A stretch of 64,000 bases of DNA from Flavobacteriales bacterium (GCA_016704485.1 JADJAA010000002.1:239591-303590), one strand, 5' to 3'. Shown: positions 2,166 through 13,390, counted from the stretch's first letter. Numbers and translations: made by a program. Notes: generated by a model from the sequence alone, not told the origin.

Positions 2166-2560
2166 GTGTTCTATCACTGTCGATGGTGCTGGAGTGACGC
2201 GAAGATGCGGAAAGGAGTTGTCCGTTCGTGCTGCTGTGAGGAAAAGAATTTCAGGGCCACTTTACAACTCAACAAAGTCTACTACGCTTTGGTGGGGACC
2301 GTGCGGTCAAGACCAAGAACGCAAGGTCCTGAAGCGGTACCCTTGCGGAGAGTTAGTACACATGCGTGACGACAGTAATAAGGAAGTATACGAACAGTGA
2401 GCTGCAAAGGTTATCGATCACCTGGGCCAAGCAGCCGGAAAATGTACCTCGCAAGCTCCAGCGGGATGCGTGCGATCCATGGCCCAACTAGTAGCCCATT
2501 GCCTACAAGTAAGTGGTATTTAACAATGCGAGAAACATTTTGTTAAAGGATCACGCCATT

Positions 2561-2982
2561 TTCTTCTTTGTCTTTTTCATTTTCTCCTTTGTACTTGCGG
2601 CAAGTTCCTTTGTCTTTTTCATTTTCTCCTTTGTACTTGCGGCAAGTTCCTTTGTCTTTTTCATTTTCTCCTTTGCACTTGCGGCAAGTTCCTTTGTCTT
2701 TTTCATTTTCTCCTTTGTACTTGCGGCAAGTTCCTTTGTCTTTTTCATTTTCTCCTTTGTACTTGCGGCAAGTTCCTTTGTCTTTTTCATTTTCTCCTTT
2801 GTACTTGCGGCAAGTTCCTTTGTCTTTTTCATTTTCTCCTTTGCACTTGCGGCAAGTTCCTTTGTCTTTTTCATTTTCTCCTTTGTACTTGCGGCAAGTT
2901 CCTTTGTCTTTTTCATTTTCTCCTTTGCACTTGCGGCAAGTTCCTTTGTCTTTTTCATTTTCTCCTTTGTCTTTTTCATTTT
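2561..2982. repeat. 42-bp tandem repeat, ~10 copies (internal 21-bp periodicity of TCCTTTGT)
   Basis: The unit ttctcctttgtacttgcggcaagttcctttgtctttttcatt repeats head-to-tail. The only variation is T/C at gtacttgcgg versus gcacttgcgg. The 42 bp = 14 codons, so every frame gives a 14-aa periodic ORF (e.g. MKKTKELAASTKEK on the minus strand). Confidence 0.95.
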
Positions 2983-3375
2983 GGCAAAGCACTTTTTGGT
3001 TTTGCCCTCGCAATTGGCGGTGCTCTGCCCTCAAACCGGCGTTCTTCGCTGCCAAATAGCGTCGGCACGCGCCGTTTCGACCGGATTACTTCGTTTGCAG
3101 TGGGATCTTCATTTAACAGCCCCTCCGCGCCGTAAAGGAGGCTCCCGATTTCGAATACTTCAAGTCGGGACGGTCGGAGCTCACGATGGATCTTTCGGCG
3201 GAGTGGTCGGCTGGATGGCCGGAGGTCGGAATGACGATCGTGCCAGCCCCAACAGGACTGTGTTCCCTCTTGATCTATACGAAGAATGGGCTCCGTTTGG
3301 TGCATTTTGCGAAGGTGTAATGGGGAATAGGGTGGTGTAAGTGACTATGGGTCAGGCTGCTAAATGTGGCCCTAT

Positions 3376-3704
3376 GTTGACCTCATGTTCATGAACGTTG
3401 CCTCCCATGTTCATGAAGGTTGCCCTCACTGTTCATGAAGGTTGCCCTCACTGTTCATGAAGGTTGCCTTCACTGTTCATGAAGGTTGCCCTCACTGTTC
3501 ATGAAGGTTGCCCTCACTGTTCATGAAGGTTGCCCTCACTGTTCATGAACGTTGCCCTCACTGTTCATGAAGGTTGCCTCCCATGTTCATGAACGTTGCC
3601 CCTCATGTTCATGAAGGTTGCCTCCCATGTTCATGAACATTGCCCCTCATGTTCATGAAGGTTGCCTCCCATGTTCATGAACATTGCCCCTTAGGTTCAT
3701 GAAC
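3376..3704. repeat. 22-bp tandem repeat array A (~15 units, consensus GTTGCCCTCACTGTTCATGAAG)
   Basis: Direct head-to-tail 22-bp units. Variants ctccca/ccctca/ccttca and gaag/gaac alternate in places as a 44-bp higher-order repeat. 22 is not a multiple of 3, so the array is non-coding. Confidence 0.95.
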
Positions 3705-3968
3705 ATTGCCCACCATGTCATACGACATTGCCCACCATGTCGACTGTAGTTGCCCACCATGTCGACTGACGTTGCCCACCATGTCGACTGACGTTGCCCA
3801 CCATGTCGACTGACATTGCCCACCATGTCGACTGACATTGCCCACCATGTCGACTGACATTGCCCACCATGTCGACAGACATTGCCCACCATGTCGACTG
3901 ACGTTGCCCACCATGTCGACTGACATTGCCCACCATGTCGACTGACATTGCCCACCATGTCGACTGAC
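3705..3968. repeat. 22-bp tandem repeat array B (~12 units, consensus (A/G)TTGCCCACCATGTCGACTGAC)
   Basis: Contiguous with array A. Units share the (G/A)TTGCCC head, but the tail changes to ACCATGTCGACTGAC. Transitional units are visible at 3683-3748. Confidence 0.95.
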
Positions 3969-4209
3969 ATTGCCCACCACTACGACTGTAGTTGCCCACC
4001 ACTACGACTGTAGTTGCCCACCACTACGAGCGTAGTTGCCCACCACTACGACTGTAGTTGCCCACCACTACGACCGTAGTTGCCCACCACTACGACTGTA
4101 GTTGCCCACCACTACGACTGTAGGTGCCCATCACTACGACTGTAGTTGCCCGACACTACGCTTGTAGTTGCCCACCTCGACGACTGTAGTTGTCCAGCAC
4201 TACGCCTGA
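3969..4209. repeat. 22-bp tandem repeat array C (~11 units, consensus GTTGCCCACCACTACGACTGTA, decaying toward 4209)
   Basis: Contiguous with array B. The last units become progressively degenerate: ggtgcccatcac, gttgcccgacac, gttgtccagcac. Confidence 0.9.
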
Positions 4210-4499: not shown

Positions 4500-6124
4500 G
4501 ACCTTGATCACATTATGGGGAAGGGAATCCCGTGCGAGTTGGGTACACGGCCCGGGCCACATGGGTGATACTTCCAGAGTATTGGCTTGGCCCGGGTGGG
4601 TAGACAACGCAGGGTCCCGAAGCGGAGACTTATTCTATGTTAAAAACAAGCATAACGTAAAGTTTTTTTCAGGCATTAGGACTCCAGCCATGAACCAAGG
4701 ATGAGGCCCACCCTTGATCCATGTTGTTGGCCGTTGCCATCATGCCTATCCCTGTTAGGTTGCTCTTCAGCAGAGCCTGCTTCCGTTTGGACACGACATA
4801 CGAAGTACGGCAATCCGATCAATTCTGCACTAATTGCCGCTGCTCATAGGGCCGGTTGTTGCGGATCACGGCGCAAACACAATGGATGATCTTATTACGG
4901 ACCGCATTGACAACCAATATCGGCTTCTTGCCTTCAGATACTTTGCGTTGGAAGTAGACCTTTAATTCTCCTTCGCGTTGCACGTTGGCAAGTGCAGCCA
5001 TGTGGAGCATGGTCTTAAGGATCTTGTTGGCTTGATGTGATACTTGCGTTCGTCCGCGAATACTGCTACCAGAACTACGCTCAAATGGAGCTACACCAGC
5101 ATGACATGCCAGTTCGCGTGGGTTCGTAAATCGATGGAAGCCATCGGTGAGCGCGATCAAATAGCTCGCTAATTGTGGGCCTACGCCGGGGATCGTGAGC
5201 AACAGGTTGTATTGTTCACTGGTTATATCATCGGCTTTGATCTGTGCCATGATCAGTTGCTCTACGCGTATCACGGCACGATCAGAAGCAACGATCAAAC
5301 GCTTGTCAAGTTGGTCGAACGCCTTTTTAATGTCCTTGTCCATGTAGCGGTTCAGGTCCGAGAGATGCTTCTTGTACATGGCTCTGACGCGAACCAAGTG
5401 TTGCCTACGTGTGAGCAGGTGCTTGAGTTTATCGAGCTTGAGGTTCTGTGCTGTGAACAAACGTGTTTTCTCTCGAAATGTGCGTGCGTATTGCGCGATC
5501 CGCAAAGCGTCCACTTTGTCGTTCTTCACACGCTTGATGCCCATGCTCTTTTGTATATCGAGCGGGTGCGCCAACCAAGCATGCCAGTGCTGCTCCACGA
5601 TCAGATTAAGCAACATCAACGTATAGTGCCCGGTAGGTTCCAAACACACTAGGCATTCCCCGGTGTCAACTCCGTATCGTTTCTTCCAGCTGTTCATTAG
5701 CGTCATTACGGCTGTACGACCATTGCTTACTTGCAAGCTCTCCAAGTGAACACCGTGTTCATCGAGCAATGCGAAATCCAAGGTTGCACTGCTCACATCG
5801 ATACCGATCCAATGCTTCATTTTCGTTTACTTTGAGGTTCAACAAATGATCGCTGTTGAGGCTGAGCGACAGGTCCGATGCTCCATGACTCTAATAGGCC
5901 CTTACGCCTAGCATTCTATCCGAGCCTTAGACCTGAGAAAGCCAGAGGTACCCATAAGTCTCTTAGGGGCTTTAACCCTAGCTGCGGAGTTGGTTCACCC
6001 CTGGCTTGGCTCAGTTCTCTTCAGTGATCTATCGACATCTAAGAAAATAGTTCCTTAGTGACGATGCAATACTAGAGCCTGCATAGGGTTAGTGGTCAAG
6101 TGGGCGTGAAGGCTCCGCGGCATC
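4500..6124 (-). mobile_element. IS110-family insertion sequence, approximate extent including non-coding flanks
   Basis: The transposase is flanked by about 300 bp of structured, GC-rich non-coding DNA on each side. The family has no terminal inverted repeats, so exact ends cannot be set by eye. Confidence 0.35.
4819..5820 (-). CDS. IS110-family transposase (DEDD N-terminal domain + IS116/IS110/IS902 C-terminal domain)
   Basis: 333-aa ORF with ATG start. N-terminus WIGIDVSSATLDFAL and C-terminal LLTIPGVGPQLASYLIALTDGFHRFTNPRELACHAGVAPFERSSGSS are both hallmark IS110-family transposase motifs. Confidence 0.85.
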   Translation of the reverse strand: MKHWIGIDVSSATLDFALLDEHGVHLESLQVSNGRTAVMTLMNSWKKRYGVDTGECLVCLEPTGHYTLMLLNLIVEQHWHAWLAHPLDIQKSMGIKRVKNDKVDALRIAQYARTFREKTRLFTAQNLKLDKLKHLLTRRQHLVRVRAMYKKHLSDLNRYMDKDIKKAFDQLDKRLIVASDRAVIRVEQLIMAQIKADDITSEQYNLLLTIPGVGPQLASYLIALTDGFHRFTNPRELACHAGVAPFERSSGSSIRGRTQVSHQANKILKTMLHMAALANVQREGELKVYFQRKVSEGKKPILVVNAVRNKIIHCVCAVIRNNRPYEQRQLVQN

Positions 6125-7399
6125 TTAATACGTTTGACCATCCGCCTTCAGAACCACAATACTTTCCCTTAGTGCTGGAACTTCCGTCGAATGTGCTTCA
6201 TGATTCCAATGTTGGCCTGAGCTACGTAAACGGCGAATGACCTGTACTTCCTGCGTAAGCCAACCTACCTTTTCAGCGATGTCCGCGAGGATAAAATCCA
6301 CGGGGATTACCACTCCGGCATATGCGGAGGTGCCAACGGCAATTTTTAGGACCGCATCTGGTTTTGCTCTGTTCCGAAGGTTCTTCAATAGTCCGGCCAT
6401 GTCTTCAAAGTAGGCTTGAATCATATTGGGGATGTTCGGATTCCAAAGTTGCTCCTTGCGCACAACTAACTCTTTGTATGCTTTTGCATAGTTGATACCG
6501 AAGTCGTCATTAAATGGCTTCGCCCAGGCTGCTTGCACATGCGACCGGACCGTTTGGAGCCGAATATTCATCAAGTCTGCGTTAGTGCGAACAAAACCGC
6601 CCAAGAAAAGCTCCGGCCTATAGACATCTGTGTAGTCGAAGGAGTTCAAGTAAGGCGGTGATGTGACACAGAGGTCGAACTTTCGTATATCCCTGTGTGT
6701 ACTGAGCCGCCGCGCATCCATGCGCTCAACACTGGACTTGGAACCAGATATTGGGGCTGCTACTACGTCCTCCTTCATCATAGCAATGTATGCCTCGTAT
6801 GCGCTGAGAAAAGAGGACGCATTGAATGACCGATAGTTGTCCATGCGCTTGTACCGGAGGCATTTGCCATCAGGATACGCATTACAATTATCCATGGCTG
6901 CCTTCATAAGCGCCAAACGGCTTAACGATCGCTCAGGACGTGCGAAACGTTTGGTGGAATCCCAGCCTCCCATGAAGGATCGAAGTACGGACCTGTTGAA
7001 TAGCCATTTACTCTTGCCTCCAGCTTGTGAGAAGGTGGAATAGGACTCAAGCGAAGTCTTCAGAGGCTGTCGAATGCCCTTGACCGTCCACTCAAACGCG
7101 TTTGAAAGGATACGGGGCGTTGATTGTTCAAGTTTGGCCTGACCAACAAAAGCGAGGAACGGATTTACTTCAAAGGCAAGGCACTCAACTCCACTTAAAG
7201 CATATTGCAGAGGACTAGTGCCGGAACCGCTGAAAGGCTCTATGGCGAAAATCCCATTCCGTGGTGTGTGATCGACCTCTGAAAGTGCGTCCGTAATTAG
7301 AGAAGCACTGAAGCCCTCCTTAATTGGGTACCATCGATGACGAGGCAACACCATGTTATCTACGGCATTGGTAATTGAGCGAACTGCATGTTTTGGCAT
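6125..7399 (-). CDS. DNA amino-methyltransferase (N6-adenine or N4-cytosine; SPPY motif IV), fourth gene of coupled operon
   Basis: 424 aa. Motif I IFAIEPFSGSGTSPL, acidic beta-2 end CLAFEVNP, motif IV LCVTSPPYLNSFDY. The ATG at 7397-7399 lies 2 bp after the upstream gene's stop at 7402-7404. Confidence 0.7.
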   Translation of the reverse strand: MPKHAVRSITNAVDNMVLPRHRWYPIKEGFSASLITDALSEVDHTPRNGIFAIEPFSGSGTSPLQYALSGVECLAFEVNPFLAFVGQAKLEQSTPRILSNAFEWTVKGIRQPLKTSLESYSTFSQAGGKSKWLFNRSVLRSFMGGWDSTKRFARPERSLSRLALMKAAMDNCNAYPDGKCLRYKRMDNYRSFNASSFLSAYEAYIAMMKEDVVAAPISGSKSSVERMDARRLSTHRDIRKFDLCVTSPPYLNSFDYTDVYRPELFLGGFVRTNADLMNIRLQTVRSHVQAAWAKPFNDDFGINYAKAYKELVVRKEQLWNPNIPNMIQAYFEDMAGLLKNLRNRAKPDAVLKIAVGTSAYAGVVIPVDFILADIAEKVGWLTQEVQVIRRLRSSGQHWNHEAHSTEVPALRESIVVLKADGQTY

Positions 7400-7401
7400 A
7401 C

Positions 7402-8466
7402 TTAGGCTTCTAAGAAAAGGCGGATTGGTTTTTCAAAGTCACTTCTTGTGGAATGGTAATCTGGGTTATAGGTGATTTCGCGTGTCGCAAAATGACATTG
7501 CTGTTTAGCTGTTAGTGATTTGGTGCTCGCCTTTACTCCATGGCGGCGACAGTCAAAAACAACGAGATAACCCAACGTGTCCGAAGCAGGACTATTTCGC
7601 TTGTGATTGTCAAGGTAATTCGCAAGTTGCTCTGCACCTTTATTTGCACGTGATTCGCCATAGTTGGCAGTGAATCTTGCACCATCACCACTACGGGATT
7701 TACCAATCCACTTAATTTCAATAAGTGCCTCTCTCGTAGACATCTGGGCTGTTAACTTGATGTCAATCGGATGGCTTTCATCGATATTTTGTTCGGGGCG
7801 AACCCAATAGTCATCAAAGCGCATACAACAGCGCAGGTAATGGCTAAGAGAGGTACGTAGCCGGTGTTCTGGTCCTGGCCCGAACCAGAAGCGTCTATCT
7901 GGATCTTGCCAAGCTTCCCGCAAAGTTGGGCATGTAGAGTGGCGAGCTAGGCTATGCCCGTAATCCAGCAGGGCTTCGCGCAGGTCATCAAAATGATGAA
8001 GCAGGAACTGACTTGGTGCCCCAGGTAGGAATTTGTCAACAGTCAGGCATTGTTCGCCAATCCGAAACTCCTCGACCTCTTGAACTAAACTGTAAACAAT
8101 AGCGTCGGTCTGGTTTTGAAGGGGTGAGTTTACATTCCCTTTCCAAAGAAATGCAGTTCCGTCTGGTCTTATCTCAATTGCTGCCAAATCGAGTACGCCG
8201 TTGATGGTTTTACCATTGAGAATTCGTTCGGCTTGGACAAGGCGCTTCTCATCAAGTTCCGAATGAATTCCTATTGGGGCAAAGACAGTGAGTTGCGTTT
8301 TTCGATTAACACGGCAGAACTGGCCTTGAATGCGAAGAAAGTTCAAGAGCTGTTTAAGCCGTGTGACACCCTCTTCACCAAACACCTCTTGAGCCTTTAT
8401 TAATGGCTGATTCGCCAATGCGCGATGCATGACGTCTGTATCAATTTTCCTAGTTGCTATGCTCAT
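7402..8466 (-). CDS. Hypothetical protein with PD-(D/E)xK-like nuclease motif (candidate restriction/effector nuclease), third gene of operon
   Basis: 354 aa. HPIDIKLTAQMSTREALIEIKWIGK gives D then E-x-K with 15-residue spacing, characteristic of the restriction-endonuclease fold. Its start overlaps the upstream gene's end by 17 bp. Confidence 0.5.
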   Translation of the reverse strand: MSIATRKIDTDVMHRALANQPLIKAQEVFGEEGVTRLKQLLNFLRIQGQFCRVNRKTQLTVFAPIGIHSELDEKRLVQAERILNGKTINGVLDLAAIEIRPDGTAFLWKGNVNSPLQNQTDAIVYSLVQEVEEFRIGEQCLTVDKFLPGAPSQFLLHHFDDLREALLDYGHSLARHSTCPTLREAWQDPDRRFWFGPGPEHRLRTSLSHYLRCCMRFDDYWVRPEQNIDESHPIDIKLTAQMSTREALIEIKWIGKSRSGDGARFTANYGESRANKGAEQLANYLDNHKRNSPASDTLGYLVVFDCRRHGVKASTKSLTAKQQCHFATREITYNPDYHSTRSDFEKPIRLFLEA

Positions 8467-9049
8467 GTGTTCGGCCTATGGTAAGCAAGTATTCAAGCCA
8501 AGCGGAGAGTGGGAGGGAAAGGTCACTACCTTGATAGGGTAGCAGTTCCCTGATTTCCCCAAATGTATCATGGAGTCTATCTACGATTGGATCACTGAAC
8601 AACCAAGCTGTTTGGGCGTGTCGCTTAATAAATGCAAGTGCGGGCTCGTAAGCAAAAGCTTCACGGATGACACTCGGTGTGAACAAGAGCAAGCAATCCG
8701 CTGCTCCGTTGAGGTAGGCTAACCTTTCTTGATTGATAGTGTGTTCCTTCCAAATACCTAGGTTGGTTTGTCCATCAGAAGTAATCTGTAGTAATTCTCC
8801 ATGATCCGTGATGTCACCTATACGTATACAGTAATCCAGTGCATCATCAAGGTTTTTCGAGAACGGCAAGCCTGATGGAGTGGAGCTAAATTCATATTCC
8901 CAATCTGAAACTGGTTTGCCTCCGTACAATGACAGCAGGCAGCTTGCGTAGGCAAGTAGGTGTAACTCTGATCTTGAGAAGCCCCTAACCGTTTGTGTCA
9001 GTCGTGAACCCAGTAGGAGCGAGTCAAAGTATGCTTGCGGACTGGTCAT
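8450..9049 (-). CDS. Hypothetical 199-aa protein (candidate 'middle component'), second gene of operon
   Basis: The ATG at 9047-9049 overlaps the ATPase stop at 9046-9048 (ATGA). No recognisable catalytic motifs. Predicted soluble. Confidence 0.6.
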   Translation of the reverse strand: MTSPQAYFDSLLLGSRLTQTVRGFSRSELHLLAYASCLLSLYGGKPVSDWEYEFSSTPSGLPFSKNLDDALDYCIRIGDITDHGELLQITSDGQTNLGIWKEHTINQERLAYLNGAADCLLLFTPSVIREAFAYEPALAFIKRHAQTAWLFSDPIVDRLHDTFGEIRELLPYQGSDLSLPLSAWLEYLLTIGRTHEHSN

Positions 9050-10989
9050 ATATTTCTGGAGTGTGCGAGTGCATCCAGCGCATTCAAGCGATTCTCAAAT
9101 TCTGCTTCATGCTTCTCTTGCACTTCAGACAGTTCGCGCCACTTATACAGGCGATGGAGTCCAAACCCGAGACTCGATTGCTTCGCAATCTCGGTGAGAA
9201 GTTCAGAAGTGTTGATGTTGGCTGTCATGAAGACAGGGTGTCCGTCATTGGCGAATTCAGCCACCATTTGTCCGGCTTGTGACTCATAAGCTAGATCAAG
9301 ACTGCCTTCTGGTGTATCTATGTAAAGGGGAGCTTTGATGGTATCTGATGAAACGTAGTTAGCTAGCGCCATTCTTAGTGCAATGTCGATGAAGAAGCGC
9401 TGACTTTCGGAGAGGTCATGCTCCGCATGTCGCTGTGTCTTCTTCACTGTTAGCGCCAGAGTAACACTCTTATCGCGCGTTTCGAGTTGGATATCTAAGT
9501 CGACACCCAGAAAGAGATTGGCTAAAGTGTTAAACTTAGGAACAAAGTCTTCCTGAATATTCAGGTATTCTTGCTCTAGCTTTTTTTGTATTTGCTTGTA
9601 AGCTTTAGAAGCTTCGGCACTTTTACTCTTCTGCTTCAAACGCTCCTTATCGATTTCGGCAATAGTTTTCTCATATGCTGCAATGACTTGATCATGATTA
9701 GCGTCCACCGGTCTGCCTCGGTTAACAACATCTCGATTTTGCTCTTCAAAGGCGTCAAGCTCTGTTTGCACAGTTTCAAGTGAACGTACGCGTATGTCAT
9801 TTTCGACATCAAGCTGAGTGATAAGGAGCACACTGGAATCGACACGCTTTTTCTGTTCGGCCAGTTCCTTATCAAGCTCTTTAAGGCGCTGGTGCACAGC
9901 TGCCGGAATGGTAGCCCGGTCAGTTGCAGCTTTGCACAGTGGACAAGTATGCTCCGCAATAGCCTTTTTTACAGGCTCTACAACTGCGATGCCCTCAGTA
10001 CCGCAAATAGCACATTTGTGCTCAATTAGTGCGAGCTGGATTGCGGGTGCGTTCTCTACTGAGTGCTTTGCCGTCACGCGTTCGCTGAACTCGCGTTGGT
10101 AGTCGTTTCGAATGACGGAAGCTCGTGCAGCGCCTTCAGCAAGCGCGAGTTTGGCATCGCGCAATTTGGTTTGAATTATATCGACCTCATTTGATCGTTC
10201 TTTCACTCGGTCAAGGAGTGTCTCAAATTCTTCATATGTGCTTGCCTCATCGTCTACAAGTTCATTCCCGCTGAGTACCTGTCTGAGGCTGTCAAGCCGA
10301 TCTTTTTGCTGTGTCATGTTCCAGCGCAGATTTCGAACCCTTGAATCCGCCTTTTCCATTTCACGTCTCAGTCTTTCCGCATCTGCCCGCTGTTCATTAT
10401 CAATTCCTACAAACAGAAGCAAGCAGGTTTCTAGAACTTTCGGATCCCAAAACAATAAATGACGTCGTTCATCAAAAGTGAGCACGAATGATTGGATGAA
10501 GACAAACTCCTTGAACGTTGAGAGTCCGATGTGCTGAGTTAATACGGCCTGATAATTTGCCTCCCGGTCTTCGGGTGTCATCTCATCAAAGTGCCTGGCA
10601 TCGTTTGTAATGACAAGTGACCGCAGCGCATCAGGTTCATCGAATCCTCGAATTAGCGTAATTGTTCGATCTCCGATTGTGAGTTCAAGTTCGATTTCTG
10701 CAATGTCACGGTCCTCAGGCTGTACACGCCCTTGAAAGTAGTCCTTGGAGAATCTTGAAATATCTCGGTAGTAATCATCAACGGATACGAACTTTTGTCC
10801 TGGGCGTGGAACAACTCCTGTTAGGCCGTAATTGATGATTTGGAAAAATGTAGATTTCCCAAGACCATTGGCCCCTGCAAGGCATGTCGTTCCAGGTTGG
10901 ATTGAAAATTCAATGTGGTCCTGAAGATTGTACAGCGAGAAGTGTGACAGTCGGATCCGGCGCACAATAGGGAAGTTAAGATGCCTCAT
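9046..10989 (-). CDS. Rad50/SMC-like ABC ATPase with coiled-coil insert and CxxC..CxxC zinc-hook-like site, first gene of operon
   Basis: 647 aa. N-terminal Walker A CLAGANGLGKSTF. A ~270-aa helical, charged central region contains KCAICGTEG and HTCPLCK. C-terminal signature-like LSESQRFFIDIALRMAL, Walker B/D-loop PLYIDTPEGSLD, and H-loop candidate NDGHPVF. Confidence 0.8.
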   Translation of the reverse strand: MRHLNFPIVRRIRLSHFSLYNLQDHIEFSIQPGTTCLAGANGLGKSTFFQIINYGLTGVVPRPGQKFVSVDDYYRDISRFSKDYFQGRVQPEDRDIAEIELELTIGDRTITLIRGFDEPDALRSLVITNDARHFDEMTPEDREANYQAVLTQHIGLSTFKEFVFIQSFVLTFDERRHLLFWDPKVLETCLLLFVGIDNEQRADAERLRREMEKADSRVRNLRWNMTQQKDRLDSLRQVLSGNELVDDEASTYEEFETLLDRVKERSNEVDIIQTKLRDAKLALAEGAARASVIRNDYQREFSERVTAKHSVENAPAIQLALIEHKCAICGTEGIAVVEPVKKAIAEHTCPLCKAATDRATIPAAVHQRLKELDKELAEQKKRVDSSVLLITQLDVENDIRVRSLETVQTELDAFEEQNRDVVNRGRPVDANHDQVIAAYEKTIAEIDKERLKQKSKSAEASKAYKQIQKKLEQEYLNIQEDFVPKFNTLANLFLGVDLDIQLETRDKSVTLALTVKKTQRHAEHDLSESQRFFIDIALRMALANYVSSDTIKAPLYIDTPEGSLDLAYESQAGQMVAEFANDGHPVFMTANINTSELLTEIAKQSSLGFGLHRLYKWRELSEVQEKHEAEFENRLNALDALAHSRNI

Positions 10990-11196
10990 GCTTGGTGATT
11001 AGATTGATATTAACCTACTCAATCCTTAGTGTCGATTTGGAATTTGAATAACGCGCGTTCCTTAGCGTTAGGGATTGAGGCGGAAAGCCAGTAGGCGAGG
11101 AGGAACGACGAGTGTAGTTTTGCAGTGGAAAGAGTGCCTCAGAATGAATTTGAGCATGTACCCGCCCAAAGAAACAACAATCCTCACGTTCGCCAT

Positions 11197-11288
11197 CATT
11201 TCTGATCCAACTTCCTAACCATCGTCAAAATAGTAGCAATGGCAATCGTCTCCCCAGTTTCATCCACAACATCAACAAGGAACTTCAC
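11197..11288 (-). pseudogene. Diverged duplicate of the paaZ 3' end (30 codons + stop)
   Basis: Minus-strand translation VKFLVDVVDETGETIAIATILTMVRKLDQK* matches the true C-terminus of the adjacent gene, ...VKFLVDVVDETGETVAIATILTMVRKLDQE*. Many synonymous nucleotide differences. It is in a different frame from the intact gene. Confidence 0.6.
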
Positions 11289-11323: not shown

Positions 11324-13390
11324 TCATTCTTGGTCGAGCTTTCTTACCATGGTCAGGATGGTTGCTATTGCGACAGTTTCTCCTGTTTCGTCTACGACGT
11401 CGACCAAGAATTTGACGATTCCTGATGCCACATCCGCACCCTTCGGAGAATCTTCCGTTAGCACTTTCTTCTCCTGATCCACTTTCTCCTTTACGGTGAA
11501 CTTAACCTGGATCGTGGAGCCCGGATAAACAGGTTTTGTAAAGCGCGCTTCTTCGATGCCGTAGTTGAGTAGTACAGGTCCTTTAGGTGGGTCTACGAAG
11601 AGACCCGCTGCTCGCGATAGGATAAAGTAACCGTGTGCCACGCGACCGGTGAAGACAGTTCCGTCGAGGGCGTTCTCGTCCATGTGGGCGTAGAACTTGT
11701 CGCCGCTGAGGTCTGCGAAGTTGTTGATGTCATCCAACGTTACCAAGTGCTTGTCGGTGATCACAGTGTCGCCGATGTTCAGCTCTTCGAAATGCATGCG
11801 GAAGGTGTGCTTCGGCGTGATGTTCTGTTTCGCACCTTGCTGGTACTGTTGTGTCAACGCAGTGATCGTTGTCGGTGATCCTTGGATGGCGGTGCGTTGC
11901 AGGTAGTGCAATACACCACGCTTGCCGCCCATCTCTTCACCACCACCTGCACGTCCGGGGCCGCCGTGTACCAATGTTGCGAGCGGTGATCCGTGTCCGG
12001 TGTTCTCCTTGGCCATGTCGCGGTTGATCACCAGCATACGTCCGTGGTGACTTGCTGCACCCCACACGAATTGCTGTGCTGCTTTATCGTCGTACGTCGC
12101 AATACTCGCGCAGAGACTGCCTTTGCCGAGTTTGGTAAGTGCTACCGCTTCTTCGATATCGGTGTAGGGCATCAATGTGCTTACCGGTCCAAAGGCTTCG
12201 ATGTTGTGGCACTGTTGGTTCTTCCATGGATCTTTGTTCAGTAGTAGGATCGGACTCATGAATGCACCTTTCTCGGAATCGGCACCGGTCACGTCCACGC
12301 TGTTGGGGTCGCCGTACACCAGCTCGCTGCCTTTCATTAATTCGGCGAGGTTATCGCGCACTTCGTTGCGTTGTGTTTGTCCGGCAAGAGCTCCCATGCG
12401 CACACCTTCTGCGCGCGGATCACCGATCACTGTTCCGCCCAAGCGTTTGCCCAATGCGATCTGCACATCCTCTACCAAGTTCTCTGGAACCATAATGCGT
12501 CGCGCACCGGTGCAGCGTTGGCCGCACTTCAACGTCATTTCCTTTCCCACTTCTTTAATGAAGAGCGAGAACTCTTCGGTATCCGGTGTGGCATCAGGGC
12601 CAAGCACAATGCTGTTCAAGCTATCGGCCTCCATGTTGAAGGGCACACTTTCGGCAATGATCTGCTTGTGCGCTTTCAGCATGCGTCCGGTGGTTGCACT
12701 TCCGGTGAAGGTCACCACATCTTGGCTCTCCACATGATCCAAAAGATCACCGGCGCTGCCTACGATCAATTGGATGGCGCCTTCAGGTAAGATGCCTGAG
12801 GCGACTATCGCCTTCACCATCGCTTCCGTCAAATAACTGGTAACGGTAGCGGGTTTCACCACCGCTGGCATTCCAGCCATCCAGTTCACGGCGCATTTTT
12901 CCAGCATCCCCCAGATCGGGAAATTGAACGCATTGATGTGTACTGCAACACCTTCCTTCGGCACCATGATGTGGTGGCCCATGAAGCTGCCGCCTTTGCT
13001 CGTGAGTACAGGAGGTCCATCCACATAGAACGGCATATTGCCGAGCTGTTTGCGCAAGCTCGCATTGGCAAAAACGTTTCCGATCCCGCCTTCAATATCC
13101 ACCCAACTATCAGCCTTGGTCGCACCGGTGCGGTAACTGATCTGGTAGAACTCCTCCTTGCGATCCATCAAATACATGGCGAGTGCTTTCAGCATTCTGC
13201 CGCGTTCCGGGAAGGTCATTTTGCGCAGCGTTGGTCCACCGGTTTCGCGTGCGTAGTTCAGCATCGCGCCAAAATCCAGACCACCGCTACTGGTTGTTGC
13301 GATGAGTTCGCCGGTGCTGGCGTCCGTGAGTTCGGTTTGTTTTCCGGATCCTTTCACCCAGGTTCCAGCGATATAATTTTCGAGTTGCAT
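11324..13390 (-). CDS. paaZ: PaaZ-like bifunctional aldehyde dehydrogenase / MaoC-type enoyl-CoA hydratase
   Basis: 688 aa. N-terminal ALDH features (FTGSATTG, catalytic CGQRCTGARR) and a C-terminal hot-dog MaoC-like domain. Length matches PaaZ. Confidence 0.75.
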   Translation of the reverse strand: MQLENYIAGTWVKGSGKQTELTDASTGELIATTSSGGLDFGAMLNYARETGGPTLRKMTFPERGRMLKALAMYLMDRKEEFYQISYRTGATKADSWVDIEGGIGNVFANASLRKQLGNMPFYVDGPPVLTSKGGSFMGHHIMVPKEGVAVHINAFNFPIWGMLEKCAVNWMAGMPAVVKPATVTSYLTEAMVKAIVASGILPEGAIQLIVGSAGDLLDHVESQDVVTFTGSATTGRMLKAHKQIIAESVPFNMEADSLNSIVLGPDATPDTEEFSLFIKEVGKEMTLKCGQRCTGARRIMVPENLVEDVQIALGKRLGGTVIGDPRAEGVRMGALAGQTQRNEVRDNLAELMKGSELVYGDPNSVDVTGADSEKGAFMSPILLLNKDPWKNQQCHNIEAFGPVSTLMPYTDIEEAVALTKLGKGSLCASIATYDDKAAQQFVWGAASHHGRMLVINRDMAKENTGHGSPLATLVHGGPGRAGGGEEMGGKRGVLHYLQRTAIQGSPTTITALTQQYQQGAKQNITPKHTFRMHFEELNIGDTVITDKHLVTLDDINNFADLSGDKFYAHMDENALDGTVFTGRVAHGYFILSRAAGLFVDPPKGPVLLNYGIEEARFTKPVYPGSTIQVKFTVKEKVDQEKKVLTEDSPKGADVASGIVKFLVDVVDETGETVAIATILTMVRKLDQE

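What the first reader, a model, noticed from the sequence alone, without database searches (positions are those of the whole stretch)
9046..10989. ABC ATPase with zinc-hook-like CxxC..CxxC at the apex of a coiled-coil insert
The 647-aa protein has its Walker A at residues ~38-46. Walker B and the D-loop are near residue ~570. About 270 residues of charged, heptad-like sequence separate them. Close to the middle of that insert lie KCAICG and CPLCK, about 20 residues apart. That is where Rad50 places its zinc hook. RloC and some ABC-3C/Lamassu ATPases show similar arrangements. Only ~60 aa follow the H-loop, so there is no fused effector such as the RloC anticodon nuclease. This implies that the effector function is supplied in trans by the downstream genes.
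Basis: partly seen in the sequence, partly recalled or inferred. Interest (0 to 1): 0.6.

Follow-up and report, generated by a model that had tools for sequence, protein, structure and literature searches.

The report
Zinc-capped SMC-like ATPase in restriction-modification cassette
The gene encodes a Rad50/Lamassu-type ATPase with a four-cysteine zinc module at the tip of its coiled-coil arm. It is the first gene of a widespread, mobile four-gene cassette (ATPase, small DNA-binding-type protein, nuclease, DNA methyltransferase) that looks like an undescribed restriction-modification-like defence system.

Summary
ORF 9046-10989 (minus strand, 647 aa) is an ABC/SMC-type ATPase. Its head is split by a ~300-residue antiparallel coiled coil with an elbow. 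The apex carries CxxC-x19-CxxC (C326/C329/C349/C352).

The four cysteines are present in 187 of 197 full-length family sequences. One monophyletic, mainly Bacteroidota clade has lost all four.

The closest relatives by profile and by fold are Lamassu LmuB and Rad50. Zinc hooks in 0, 1 or 2 copies are already documented for LmuB, so the ATPase itself is a new member of a known kind.

The context is the new part. In 77 loci from many phyla, plus three viral contigs, the ATPase is followed in fixed order by two overlapping genes:
- a ~200-aa protein with weak winged-helix matches;
- a ~354-aa protein with a novel N-domain and an invariant C-terminal PD-(D/E)xK nuclease.

A DNA methyltransferase lies adjacent in all 76 loci not cut by a contig end. 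Neither partner matches LmuA, LmuC or any PADLOC, Pfam or PDB family.

My best reading (~0.55) is an ATP-dependent, methylation-gated restriction system built on a Lamassu-like sensor. The main rival (~0.25) is a Lamassu-type abortive system with an accessory methylase. I found no description of this cassette in the accessible literature.

The parts
9046..10989 (-). 647-aa Rad50/LmuB-like coiled-coil ABC ATPase, first gene of the cassette
   Evidence: ORF. Pfam AAA_23 and SMC_N match 43/43 family members. PADLOC LmuB E 3.5e-23. AF2 pLDDT 87. Foldseek top hits are LmuB, Rad50 and YydD.
10852..10875 (-). Walker A motif GANGLGKS (residues 39-46)
   Evidence: G39, G44 and K45 are invariant in 58/58 loci.
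9508..10398 (-). Antiparallel coiled-coil arm (residues 198-494) with an elbow at 241-245 / 425-430
   Evidence: AF2 secondary structure. Heptad periodicity against shuffles.
9931..10017 (-). Apical Cys4 module: KCAICG, a 12-residue helix, then CPLCK (residues 325-353)
   Evidence: AF2 shows two beta-knuckles (325/332 and 348/355) flanking helix 334-345. Weak Pfam DUF7560 match at 325-358.
9295..9414 (-). ABC signature LSESQ (526-530), Walker B LYID-T (554-559), E561, and D-loop SLD (563-565)
   Evidence: Invariant in 58/58 loci. The Walker B form hhhhD-T fits the short-LmuB consensus hhhhD[Q/S/T/E] (bioRxiv 10.1101/2025.04.02.646746).
8450..9049 (-). 199-aa 'middle' protein. It overlaps the ATPase stop codon by 4 nt. 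Likely a winged-helix adaptor.
   Evidence: Always the next gene. 335 clusters at 50% identity. Only weak wHTH matches: HemN_C, DUF4364, HTH_45, Mrr_N. No LmuC, MC, DndE or PbeD match.
7402..8466 (-). 354-aa effector: a novel alpha/beta N-domain (~10-142) plus a C-terminal PD-(D/E)xK nuclease
   Evidence: AF2 pLDDT 87.5. No significant PDB fold match; the weak hits are all PD-(D/E)xK nucleases.
7537..7881 (-). PD-(D/E)xK catalytic core (residues 196-310): E200, E225, P233-x-D235, E250-x-K252, Q280
   Evidence: E200, E225, P233, D235, E250 and K252 are invariant in 58/58 loci and Q280 in 57/58. The alpha-beta-beta-beta-alpha-beta topology appears in the model. Weak Pfam matches to PDDEXK_9, NucS_C and SfsA.
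6125..7399 (-). 424-aa amino-DNA methyltransferase: motif I FSGSG at 56-60 and motif IV SPPY at 247-250, with ~190 aa between them
   Evidence: PADLOC MTase_II E 9e-42. SPPY is invariant in 58/58. An MTase is adjacent in all 76 loci not cut by a contig end.
4819..5820 (-). IS110-family transposase flanking the cassette. It is a neighbour, not a component.
   Evidence: Pfam DEDD_Tnp_IS110 and Transposase_20.

Best explanation
The ORF encodes a short Rad50/LmuB-type SMC-like ATPase. The two halves of its ABC head are joined by a ~300-residue antiparallel coiled coil with an elbow. The tip of the arm is capped by a Cys4 zinc module made of two CxxC knuckles.

It is the lead gene of a horizontally mobile, translationally coupled four-gene cassette:
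- the ATPase;
- a ~200-aa adaptor with weak winged-helix matches;
- a protein with a docking-type N-domain and a C-terminal PD-(D/E)xK nuclease;
- an SPPY-type amino-DNA methyltransferase.

Proposed mechanism: the methyltransferase marks host DNA. The ATPase dimer, together with the adaptor and the nuclease's N-domain bound along the coiled coil (as LmuC and the LmuA C-terminal domain are in Lamassu), loads on or scans DNA in an ATP-dependent way. It licenses the nuclease only on DNA that lacks the mark. This would be an ATP-dependent restriction-modification system in which an SMC-like sensor replaces the SF2 helicase or McrB-type motor.

Shown here: domain architectures, invariant catalytic residues, gene order and linkage, mobility, and co-variation patterns.

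Inferred: zinc binding, complex formation, defence function, and methylation-gated cleavage. I also infer (~0.6) that the four cysteines form one intramolecular zinc site. Such a site would stabilise the apex and may still mediate arm-arm contact, rather than acting as a Rad50-type inter-chain half-site.

Linkage:
- ABC, p199 and p354 are in fixed order in 77 loci, with median intergenic gaps of -4 nt.
- A homologous MTase is adjacent in 75 loci: 53 downstream on the same strand, 5 downstream on the opposite strand, 12 upstream and divergent, and 5 upstream on the same strand.
- The one apparent exception, L043, has a non-homologous N6_N4 methylase directly after p354. The other locus without a match, L080, is cut by a contig end.
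- This variable placement and replacement of the MTase around a fixed restriction core is the pattern seen in restriction-modification systems.

Catalytic competence:
- The nuclease residues E200, E225, D235, E250 and K252, the ATPase motifs, and the MTase SPPY motif are all invariant in 58/58 loci.

Co-variation, controlling for ATPase-head divergence:
- The nuclease domain tracks the MTase (partial rho 0.35, p 0.001). The p354 N-domain does not (0.05-0.09, not significant).
- The p354 N-domain and p199 track the ATPase coiled coil (0.32 and 0.29, p 0.001).

Mobility:
- Homology with the 76%-identical Flavobacteriales locus L001 stops exactly at the cassette ends, 6134-10996.
- GC content dips over the cassette, and an IS110 transposase is adjacent.
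- Three IMG/VR contigs carry the full cassette.
- The family is present in 164 GTDB species genomes, including an archaeon.

Precedents:
[quoted passage not shown] Its mad3 model matches 42 of 43 family members, best E 4.7e-18 (bioRxiv 10.1101/2023.03.30.534895).
- CxC-type coiled-coil ABC ATPases are linked to methylases and nucleases (PMC10853773).
Against: - There is no experiment and no complex model.
- No recognisable sequence-specificity (TRD-like) module was found in the restriction proteins.
- The nuclease-MTase co-variation is modest, and partial Mantel tests are inflated by shared phylogeny.
- The closest relatives of the ATPase (Lamassu) act by abortive infection triggered by DNA ends, without any methylase.
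- The Walker B D-T form, as in short LmuB, suggests slow hydrolysis. That fits a switch better than a translocating motor.
- Loss of all four cysteines in one clade shows the zinc module is not essential to the system.
- The fold of p199 was not modelled.
Confidence: 0.55

Rival explanations
1. The cassette is a Lamassu-type abortive-infection system with permuted partners. The ATPase dimer senses DNA ends or replication intermediates of an invader and releases or activates the sequestered PD-(D/E)xK nuclease, which then degrades DNA indiscriminately. The methyltransferase is an accessory, for example one that dampens autoimmunity or came from a co-travelling restriction-modification remnant. 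It is not the self/non-self discriminator.
For: - LmuB is the best profile and fold match for the ATPase.
- The Walker B D-T form fits short LmuB.
- A small 'middle' gene sits between the ATPase and the effector, as in ABC-3C systems (PMC10586767).
- The p354 N-domain and p199 co-vary with the coiled coil. This resembles the LmuA C-terminal domain and LmuC binding near the hook (bioRxiv 10.1101/2025.03.14.643221).
- Two of 31 p354 homologues weakly match one LmuA model over the nuclease domain.
Against: - A methylase is adjacent in all 76 loci not cut by a contig end, and in one locus it is replaced by a non-homologous methylase. That is hard to explain for an accessory gene.
- The accessible Lamassu surveys report no methylase.
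- Gene order (ATPase first) and effector domain order (nuclease C-terminal) are the reverse of LmuA-LmuC-LmuB.
- p199 and p354 do not match the LmuC or LmuA profiles, and p354 does not match the LmuA chains in the PDB.
Confidence: 0.25
2. The CxxC..CxxC pair is a true Rad50-type zinc hook. Zinc is ligated between two chains, either as two inter-chain zinc sites or as one site plus a spare motif. This would be the obligatory dimerisation device of the ATPase.
For: - The module sits exactly at the coiled-coil apex, as in Rad50.
- The LmuB zinc hook is required for defence in the Salmonella system.
- Short LmuBs with two CxxC copies are documented.
Against: - Each CxxC lies in its own beta-knuckle, and the two are separated by a near-constant spacer (19 residues in 180 of 187 cases). 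That is the canonical zinc-ribbon or rubredoxin geometry of a single-chain Cys4 site.
- Weak matches go to small Cys4 families (DUF7560, HypA), not to Pfam Rad50_zn_hook.
- A whole clade functions without any of the cysteines.
- I could not read model coordinates to measure S-S distances.
Confidence: 0.35
3. The cassette is mainly a selfish addiction module, or a modification-dependent (type IV-like) system. In the latter case the nuclease complex would attack DNA carrying foreign modifications, and the methylase would serve another role.
For: - The cassette is mobile.
- IS110 transposases are adjacent here and in L043.
- The tight methylase-nuclease linkage is what post-segregational killing modules show.
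Against: - An addiction role is not exclusive of defence.
- A type IV reading gives no reason for the obligatory co-inherited methylase, or for the nuclease domain co-varying with it.
Confidence: 0.1
4. The ATPase is a housekeeping SbcC/Rad50-like DNA-repair or chromosome-maintenance protein, and the neighbouring genes are unrelated.
For: Rad50 and SMC heads are among the fold and sequence matches.
Against: - There is no Mre11/SbcD partner.
- The distribution is patchy across phyla, with a fixed four-gene context.
- The flanks differ between close relatives.
- The genes are translationally coupled to a nuclease and a methylase.
Confidence: 0.03

Closest known systems
Lamassu / ABC-3C / DdmABC (LmuB SMC-like ATPase with LmuC and LmuA)
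   Same: - A short (~650 aa) coiled-coil ABC ATPase with a folding point and an apical CxxC hook in 0, 1 or 2 copies.
- Walker B of the form hhhhD[Q/S/T/E].
- The best HMM and fold matches for the ATPase.
- A three-protein core with a small middle gene and a trans effector that can be a PD-(D/E)xK nuclease.
   Different: - Gene order is ATPase first, not last.
- The effector has its nuclease at the C-terminus and a novel N-domain, whereas LmuA has an N-terminal effector and a C-terminal docking domain.
- p199 and p354 do not match the LmuC or LmuA profiles, and p354 does not match the LmuA structures.
- A DNA methyltransferase is obligatory here and is not part of Lamassu.
- The likely logic is methylation-gated restriction rather than abortive infection.
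Rad50/SbcC-Mre11/SbcD
   Same: An ABC head split by an antiparallel coiled coil, with cysteine-ligated zinc at the apex, partnered with a nuclease.
   Different: - Rad50 has one CxxC per chain, forming an inter-chain Zn(Cys)4 site. Here there are two CxxC motifs per chain.
- The arms here are much shorter.
- The partner is a PD-(D/E)xK nuclease, not an Mre11 phosphoesterase.
- The cassette is mobile and patchily distributed.
- There is no Pfam Rad50_zn_hook match.
MADS (methylation-associated defence system, mad1-8)
   Same: A methyltransferase-based self/non-self system that needs an ABC-type ATPase. The mad3 profile matches the head of 42 of 43 family members.
   Different: - MADS has eight genes.
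- The mad3 profile is short (374 positions) and matches only the two head halves, skipping the ~300-residue arm.
- p199 and p354 match no mad protein.
CxC-type ABC ATPase-DndE systems (PbeABCD) and DndD
   Same: A coiled-coil ABC ATPase with an apical zinc hook, paired with a small DNA-binding partner, and in some neighbourhoods with nucleases and cytosine methylases.
   Different: - The hook there is a CxC motif.
- The partner there is DndE (two RHH domains), and the nuclease is an HKD-SF2 helicase fusion.
- The PbeC and DndD profiles match the present family more weakly than LmuB does.
- No DndE or PbeD match for p199.
ATP-dependent restriction-modification systems (Type I, Type III, McrBC-like)
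   Same: An adjacent methyltransferase plus a PD-(D/E)xK nuclease, with an NTPase subunit required for restriction. Methylase placement and orientation vary around the restriction genes.
   Different: The NTPase here is an SMC/Rad50-like ABC ATPase rather than an SF2 helicase or AAA+ GTPase. No HsdS- or Mod-type specificity subunit was identified.
RloC / PrrC
   Same: [quoted passage not shown]
   Different: In RloC the anticodon nuclease is fused to the C-terminus. Here only ~55 residues follow the ATPase core, and the nuclease is a separate DNA-type PD-(D/E)xK protein.

Membership tests
Lamassu (LmuACB / ABC-3C) | LmuB: a short SMC/Rad50-like coiled-coil ABC ATPase | tested here: met
   PADLOC LmuB PDLC03859 E 3.5e-23, covering 4-552 of 611 positions. 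It matches 41 of 43 family members, best E 2e-29. Foldseek hits 9uxh_F, 9hqu and 9hqx LmuB at E ~1e-13 to 1e-12. The scores are low (81 bits, 12-14% identity), so this is a relative, not a close member.
Lamassu (LmuACB / ABC-3C) | Short-LmuB Walker B hhhhD[Q/S/T/E] and an optional apical CxxC hook (0-2 copies) | tested here: met
   LYID-T is invariant. There are two CxxC motifs at the apex. The criterion comes from bioRxiv 10.1101/2025.04.02.646746.
Lamassu (LmuACB / ABC-3C) | LmuA: an N-terminal effector domain plus a C-terminal docking domain | tested here: not met
   p354 has the nuclease at its C-terminus. The window protein has no PADLOC LmuA hit. Only 2 of 31 homologues hit one LmuA model weakly, over the nuclease domain only. 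No LmuA chain appears among the Foldseek PDB hits.
Lamassu (LmuACB / ABC-3C) | LmuC / middle component | tested here: inconclusive
   A small gene lies between the ATPase and the effector, so the position fits. However, 62 p199 homologues give no LmuC (PADLOC) or ABC-3C MC (Pfam) hit at E<=1, and there is no PDB sequence hit.
Lamassu (LmuACB / ABC-3C) | Operon order lmuA-(lmuC)-lmuB, with no modification enzyme | tested here: not met
   The order here is ATPase, p199, nuclease. A methyltransferase is adjacent in all 76 loci not cut by a contig end.
Rad50/SbcC | A single CxxC hook per chain forming an inter-chain zinc site (Pfam Rad50_zn_hook) | tested here: not met
   There are two CxxC motifs per chain with a 19-residue spacer. 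There is no Rad50_zn_hook hit. The inter- versus intra-chain geometry itself is not testable here.
Rad50/SbcC | An Mre11/SbcD phosphoesterase partner | tested here: not met
   The neighbouring genes are p199, a PD-(D/E)xK protein and a methyltransferase.
Restriction-modification system (generic) | A co-inherited DNA methyltransferase and a nuclease with intact catalytic motifs | tested here: met
   SPPY and FxGxG are present in the MTase. The PD-(D/E)xK residues are invariant. Adjacency holds in 76/76 loci.
Restriction-modification system (generic) | The nuclease is blocked by the cognate methylation, and MTase loss is lethal | not testable with these tools
   This needs genetics and biochemistry. 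The only indirect support is the nuclease-domain/MTase co-variation.
MADS | The eight-gene mad1-8 operon | tested here: not met
   Only mad3 and mad8 ATPase-head similarity was found. p199 and p354 match no mad model.
CxC-ABC/DndE (PbeABCD) and Dnd | An obligate DndE (double RHH) partner and a CxC hook | tested here: not met
   There is no DndE or PbeD hit for p199. The hook is CxxC..CxxC. PbeC and DndD match more weakly than LmuB. The criterion comes from PMC10853773.
RloC | A C-terminal fused anticodon nuclease | tested here: not met
   The protein ends ~55 residues after the ATPase core.

The most novel reading that the evidence does not exclude
The cassette defines a new class of ATP-dependent restriction-modification system. 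In it, a Lamassu/Rad50-like zinc-capped SMC ATPase, rather than a helicase or McrB-type motor, senses DNA and gates a PD-(D/E)xK nuclease according to methylation status. That would mechanistically bridge SMC-based immunity and restriction-modification. The system is present in at least 160 species of bacteria and at least one archaeon.
Probability: 0.4. Interest if true: 0.75.

Novelty: new variant of a known kind. Interest (0 to 1): 0.55.

Why it matters
SMC-like defence systems (Lamassu, Wadjet) are thought to recognise invaders by DNA shape or ends, and restriction-modification systems by missing methyl marks. A widespread cassette that joins a Lamassu-type sensor to an obligatory methyltransferase would show the two principles combined in one machine. 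It would also give a compact four-gene model for asking how an SMC-like ATPase controls a nuclease. Cultured strains that could serve as sources include Hylemonella gracilis ATCC 19624, Paludibaculum fermentans, several Streptomyces and Flavobacterium solisilvae. The natural Cys-less clade is a ready-made test of what the zinc module contributes.

Tried and rejected
- **p199 model refused.** I used the second job on p354, so p199 has no model.
- **Key paper not held.** Krishnan et al. 2020 (NAR 48:10045, PMC7544218), the ABC-3C / ABC ATPase classification, is not in the library. I cannot exclude that this neighbourhood is mentioned there.
- **Empty sequence searches against the PDB.** The p354 profile and the MTase gave no match at all, and the p199 profile gave only non-significant matches (E >= 0.16).
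- **Plasmids.** A tblastn of p354 against PLSDB found no match.
- **p354 N-domain as the specificity module.** I considered this and rejected it: the N-domain does not co-vary with the MTase.
- **Pseudogene-decay asymmetry.** I looked for nuclease loss with the MTase retained. A few loci have stops or frameshifts in p354 or the ATPase. Several are MAGs where assembly errors cannot be excluded, so I do not use this as evidence.
- **MADS and PbeABCD/Dnd membership.** Both were considered because of ATPase-head matches, and rejected on partner proteins.
- **Literature.** Five literature searches turned up no paper describing this cassette.
Full report
**1. The observation**

- The ORF at 9046-10989 on the minus strand encodes 647 aa. 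Homologues align from residues 1-7, which supports this start rather than the 634-aa NCBI call (P0001).
- Walker A (GANGLGKS) is at 39-46. The ABC signature LSESQ is at 526-530. Walker B plus D-loop is LYIDTPEGSLD at 554-565.
- The six cysteines include C326/C329 (KCAICG) and C349/C352 (CPLCK).
- An AlphaFold2 model built on 117 sequences is confident (pLDDT 87, pTM 0.68).
  - The head is formed by residues 1-195 and 495-647.
  - The insert is an antiparallel pair of long helices, 198-239 plus 247-307 going up and 363-424 plus 432-494 coming down.
  - Matching breaks at 241-245 and 425-430 form an elbow.
  - The apex, 308-362, has each CxxC in a short beta-knuckle on either side of helix 334-345.
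- The arm is 35% charged. It shows a 3.5-residue hydrophobic periodicity that beats shuffles in two of the four helices.

**2. Conservation of the cysteines**

- All four cysteines are invariant in 43 and in 117 aligned homologues at 36-76% identity.
- Of the 197 pooled family sequences of at least 600 aa, 187 have CxxC-x(15-20)-CxxC. The spacer is exactly 19 residues in 180 of them, and the second motif is usually CP[LF]C.
- Ten loci have lost all four cysteines. They are mostly Bacteroidota, with two from Thermodesulfobacteriota or 'Deltaproteobacteria'. They have a shorter helical apex but keep the complete gene cassette.
- The eight of these in the tree data set form one monophyletic clade. 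The module is therefore strongly conserved but not indispensable. Documented hook losses in Lamassu show the same pattern.

**3. What the ATPase is**

- Pfam gives AAA_23 and SMC_N for all 43 members tested, and no Rad50_zn_hook.
- The best PADLOC model is LmuB PDLC03859 (E 3.5e-23 over the full length; 41 of 43 members, best E 2e-29). Next come mad3 of MADS, PbeC and DndD.
- Foldseek against the PDB returns the following at E 1e-14 to 1e-12 and 12-14% identity:
  - B. subtilis YydD;
  - type II Lamassu LmuB (9uxh);
  - Chaetomium Rad50;
  - Salmonella LmuB (9hqu, 9hqx).
- The Walker B aspartate is followed by Thr, not Glu. That matches the short-LmuB consensus hhhhD[Q/S/T/E] (bioRxiv 10.1101/2025.04.02.646746).
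- That paper also states that short LmuBs carry zero, one or two CxxC copies. A second paper shows that the hook is needed for defence and that LmuC and the LmuA C-terminal domain sit next to it (10.1101/2025.03.14.643221).

**4. The surroundings change the picture**

Three more genes follow on the same strand, with overlapping or near-abutting boundaries:

| Gene | Coordinates | Junction with the gene before |
|---|---|---|
| p199 | 8450-9049 | 4-nt overlap |
| p354 | 7402-8466 | 17-nt overlap |
| 424-aa methyltransferase | 6125-7399 | 2-nt gap |

An IS110 transposase comes next.

- A scan of one genome per GTDB species found relatives in 164 species. I analysed the best 80 loci.
- 77 loci have ATPase, p199 and p354 in the same order, with median gaps of -4 nt.
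- 75 of them have a homologue of the methyltransferase adjacent: 53 downstream on the same strand, 5 downstream and convergent, 12 upstream and divergent, and 5 upstream on the same strand.
- Of the two remaining loci, L080 ends at a contig edge. L043 has a different N6_N4-family methylase immediately after p354.
- Methylase linkage is therefore universal, while methylase position, and in one case its family, vary.
- The carriers span Bacteroidota, Acidobacteriota, Actinomycetota (many Streptomyces), Proteobacteria, Chloroflexota, Planctomycetota, Verrucomicrobiota and others, plus one archaeon. Three IMG/VR contigs also carry the full cassette.
- Homology between the window and the closest locus (L001, 76% identical ATPase) stops exactly at 6134-10996, and GC content dips over this stretch. 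The four genes move as a unit.

**5. The partner proteins**

p354:
- It has an invariant E200, E225, P233-x-D235, E250-x-K252 set in 58/58 loci (plus Q280 in 57/58), on an alpha-beta-beta-beta-alpha-beta core in a confident model (pLDDT 87.5). This is a textbook PD-(D/E)xK nuclease occupying the C-terminal half.
- Weak Pfam matches go to PDDEXK_9, NucS_C and SfsA.
- Its N-terminal alpha/beta domain (~10-142) has no significant PDB fold match. The only weak hits are to nuclease domains: the R2 RLE domain, NucS, DdmD, Hjc, XisH and Can1.

p199:
- It is a fast-evolving family of ~200-aa proteins, with 335 clusters at 50% identity.
- It has only weak winged-helix matches (HemN_C, DUF4364, HTH_45, Mrr_N).
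- It matches no LmuC, ABC-3C MC, DndE or PbeD model.

Methyltransferase:
- It has FxGxG at 55-60 and an invariant SPPY at 247-250, with ~190 residues between them. It matches PADLOC Type II MTase models at 9e-42.
- From general knowledge of amino-methyltransferases, SPPY is more typical of N4-cytosine enzymes. I did not test this.

**6. How it most likely works**

Pairwise-divergence analysis over 58 cassettes gave these mean pairwise identities:

| Region | Mean identity |
|---|---|
| ATPase head | 47% |
| p354 nuclease domain | 45% |
| p199 | 32% |
| ATPase coiled coil | 26% |
| p354 N-domain | 25% |

After controlling for ATPase-head divergence:
- the p354 N-domain and p199 co-vary with the coiled coil (partial rho 0.32 and 0.29, p 0.001);
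- the nuclease domain co-varies with the methyltransferase (0.35, p 0.001);
- the p354 N-domain does not co-vary with the methyltransferase (0.05-0.09).

With the caveat that such tests are inflated by shared ancestry, the pattern suggests two things:
- p199 and the p354 N-domain dock on the arm of the ATPase. That would be functionally equivalent to LmuC and the LmuA C-terminal domain, but with the effector's domain order reversed.
- The nuclease domain shares its DNA target with the methylase.

I therefore propose an ATP-dependent restriction-modification-like system. The methylase marks self DNA, and the SMC-like dimer with its adaptor gates the nuclease on unmarked DNA. MADS and the methylase-linked CxC-ABC systems are precedents for ABC ATPases in methylation-based defence. 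Everything beyond architecture, conservation and linkage is inference.

**7. The apex**

Two knuckles per chain with a near-constant 19-residue spacer containing a helix is the geometry of a single-chain Cys4 zinc ribbon. The only sequence hints point to small Cys4 families (DUF7560, HypA). I favour (~0.6) an intramolecular zinc site that caps the arm and may still mediate arm-arm contact. I could not read model coordinates or run a dimer model, so a Rad50-type inter-chain hook remains open.

**8. Rivals**

- The main alternative is a Lamassu-type abortive system with permuted partners and an accessory methylase (~0.25).
  - For it: the LmuB affinity and the slow-hydrolysis Walker B form.
  - Against it: the universal methylase linkage with one non-homologous replacement, the reversed gene and domain order, and the failure of p199 and p354 to match LmuC and LmuA.
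- Housekeeping repair is effectively excluded by the mobile, patchy four-gene context.

**9. Novelty**

- The ATPase with its zinc module is a new member of the LmuB/Rad50-like kind.
- The methyltransferase-linked four-gene cassette was not found in PADLOC-DB v2 (p199 and p354 give no hits). It was also absent from every paper I could search.
- The 2020 ABC-ATPase classification, whose abstract as I recall it mentions ABC ATPases acting together with restriction-modification systems, could not be read.
- I rate the finding as a new variant of a known kind, of moderate to good interest, and directly testable in cultured carriers.

Noticed in passing
window 11199-11288 (minus strand): A 30-codon pseudo-copy of the C-terminus of the upstream 688-aa gene (11324-13390) lies in the spacer between that gene and the cassette. 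It is 93% identical in amino acids and 77% in nucleotides, with differences mostly at third codon positions. It looks like the scar of an element that integrated at the gene's 3' end and carried a surrogate end.
   Followed up: partly
window 3376-4208: Long arrays of 22-bp tandem repeats, about 37 copies in two or three related sub-families. They give rise to spurious repetitive ORFs such as 3718-4002. They sit just beyond the IS110 element that flanks the cassette.
   Followed up: no
window 2566-2970: A 42-bp tandem repeat, 9.6 copies at 98% match, lies inside ORF 2513-3340. It would encode a 14-aa protein repeat if that ORF is real.
   Followed up: no
window 4819-5820 (minus strand): An IS110-family transposase (DEDD_Tnp_IS110 plus Transposase_20) lies about 300 bp downstream of the methyltransferase. 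An IS110 transposase also lies upstream of the cassette in L043.
   Followed up: partly
L058, L060-L062, L065-L067, L071, L076, L080 (ATPase apex region): Ten loci have replaced the whole Cys4 module with a cysteine-free helical segment while keeping all four genes. The eight of them included in the tree form one monophyletic clade. This is a natural experiment on the role of the zinc module.
   Followed up: yes
L043 3528-9141 and 13686-14399: In this Armatimonadetes genome the usual methylase is replaced by a shorter N6_N4_Mtase-family gene. The upstream flank carries a NACHT/STAND protein with an FGE-sulfatase domain, a tyrosine integrase and an IS110 transposase, which suggests a mobile or defence-island setting.
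   Followed up: partly
L033 12579-14383: About 1.6 kb separates p199 from the p354 homologue in this Vicinamibacterales locus, against overlapping genes everywhere else. This may be an insertion into the cassette.
   Followed up: no
window 6000-11000: GC content falls to 0.465-0.47 across the cassette, against about 0.49-0.53 in the flanks. This is consistent with horizontal acquisition.
   Followed up: partly
PDB 9a6c_A and 9a5m_A (fold-search hits): The best structural match of the ATPase is B. subtilis YydD, in the YydD-YydB integrative model. One weak hit of p354 is the YdjA-YdiS model, which represents subunits of the multi-protein BsuMI restriction enzyme. Neither link was explored.
   Followed up: no
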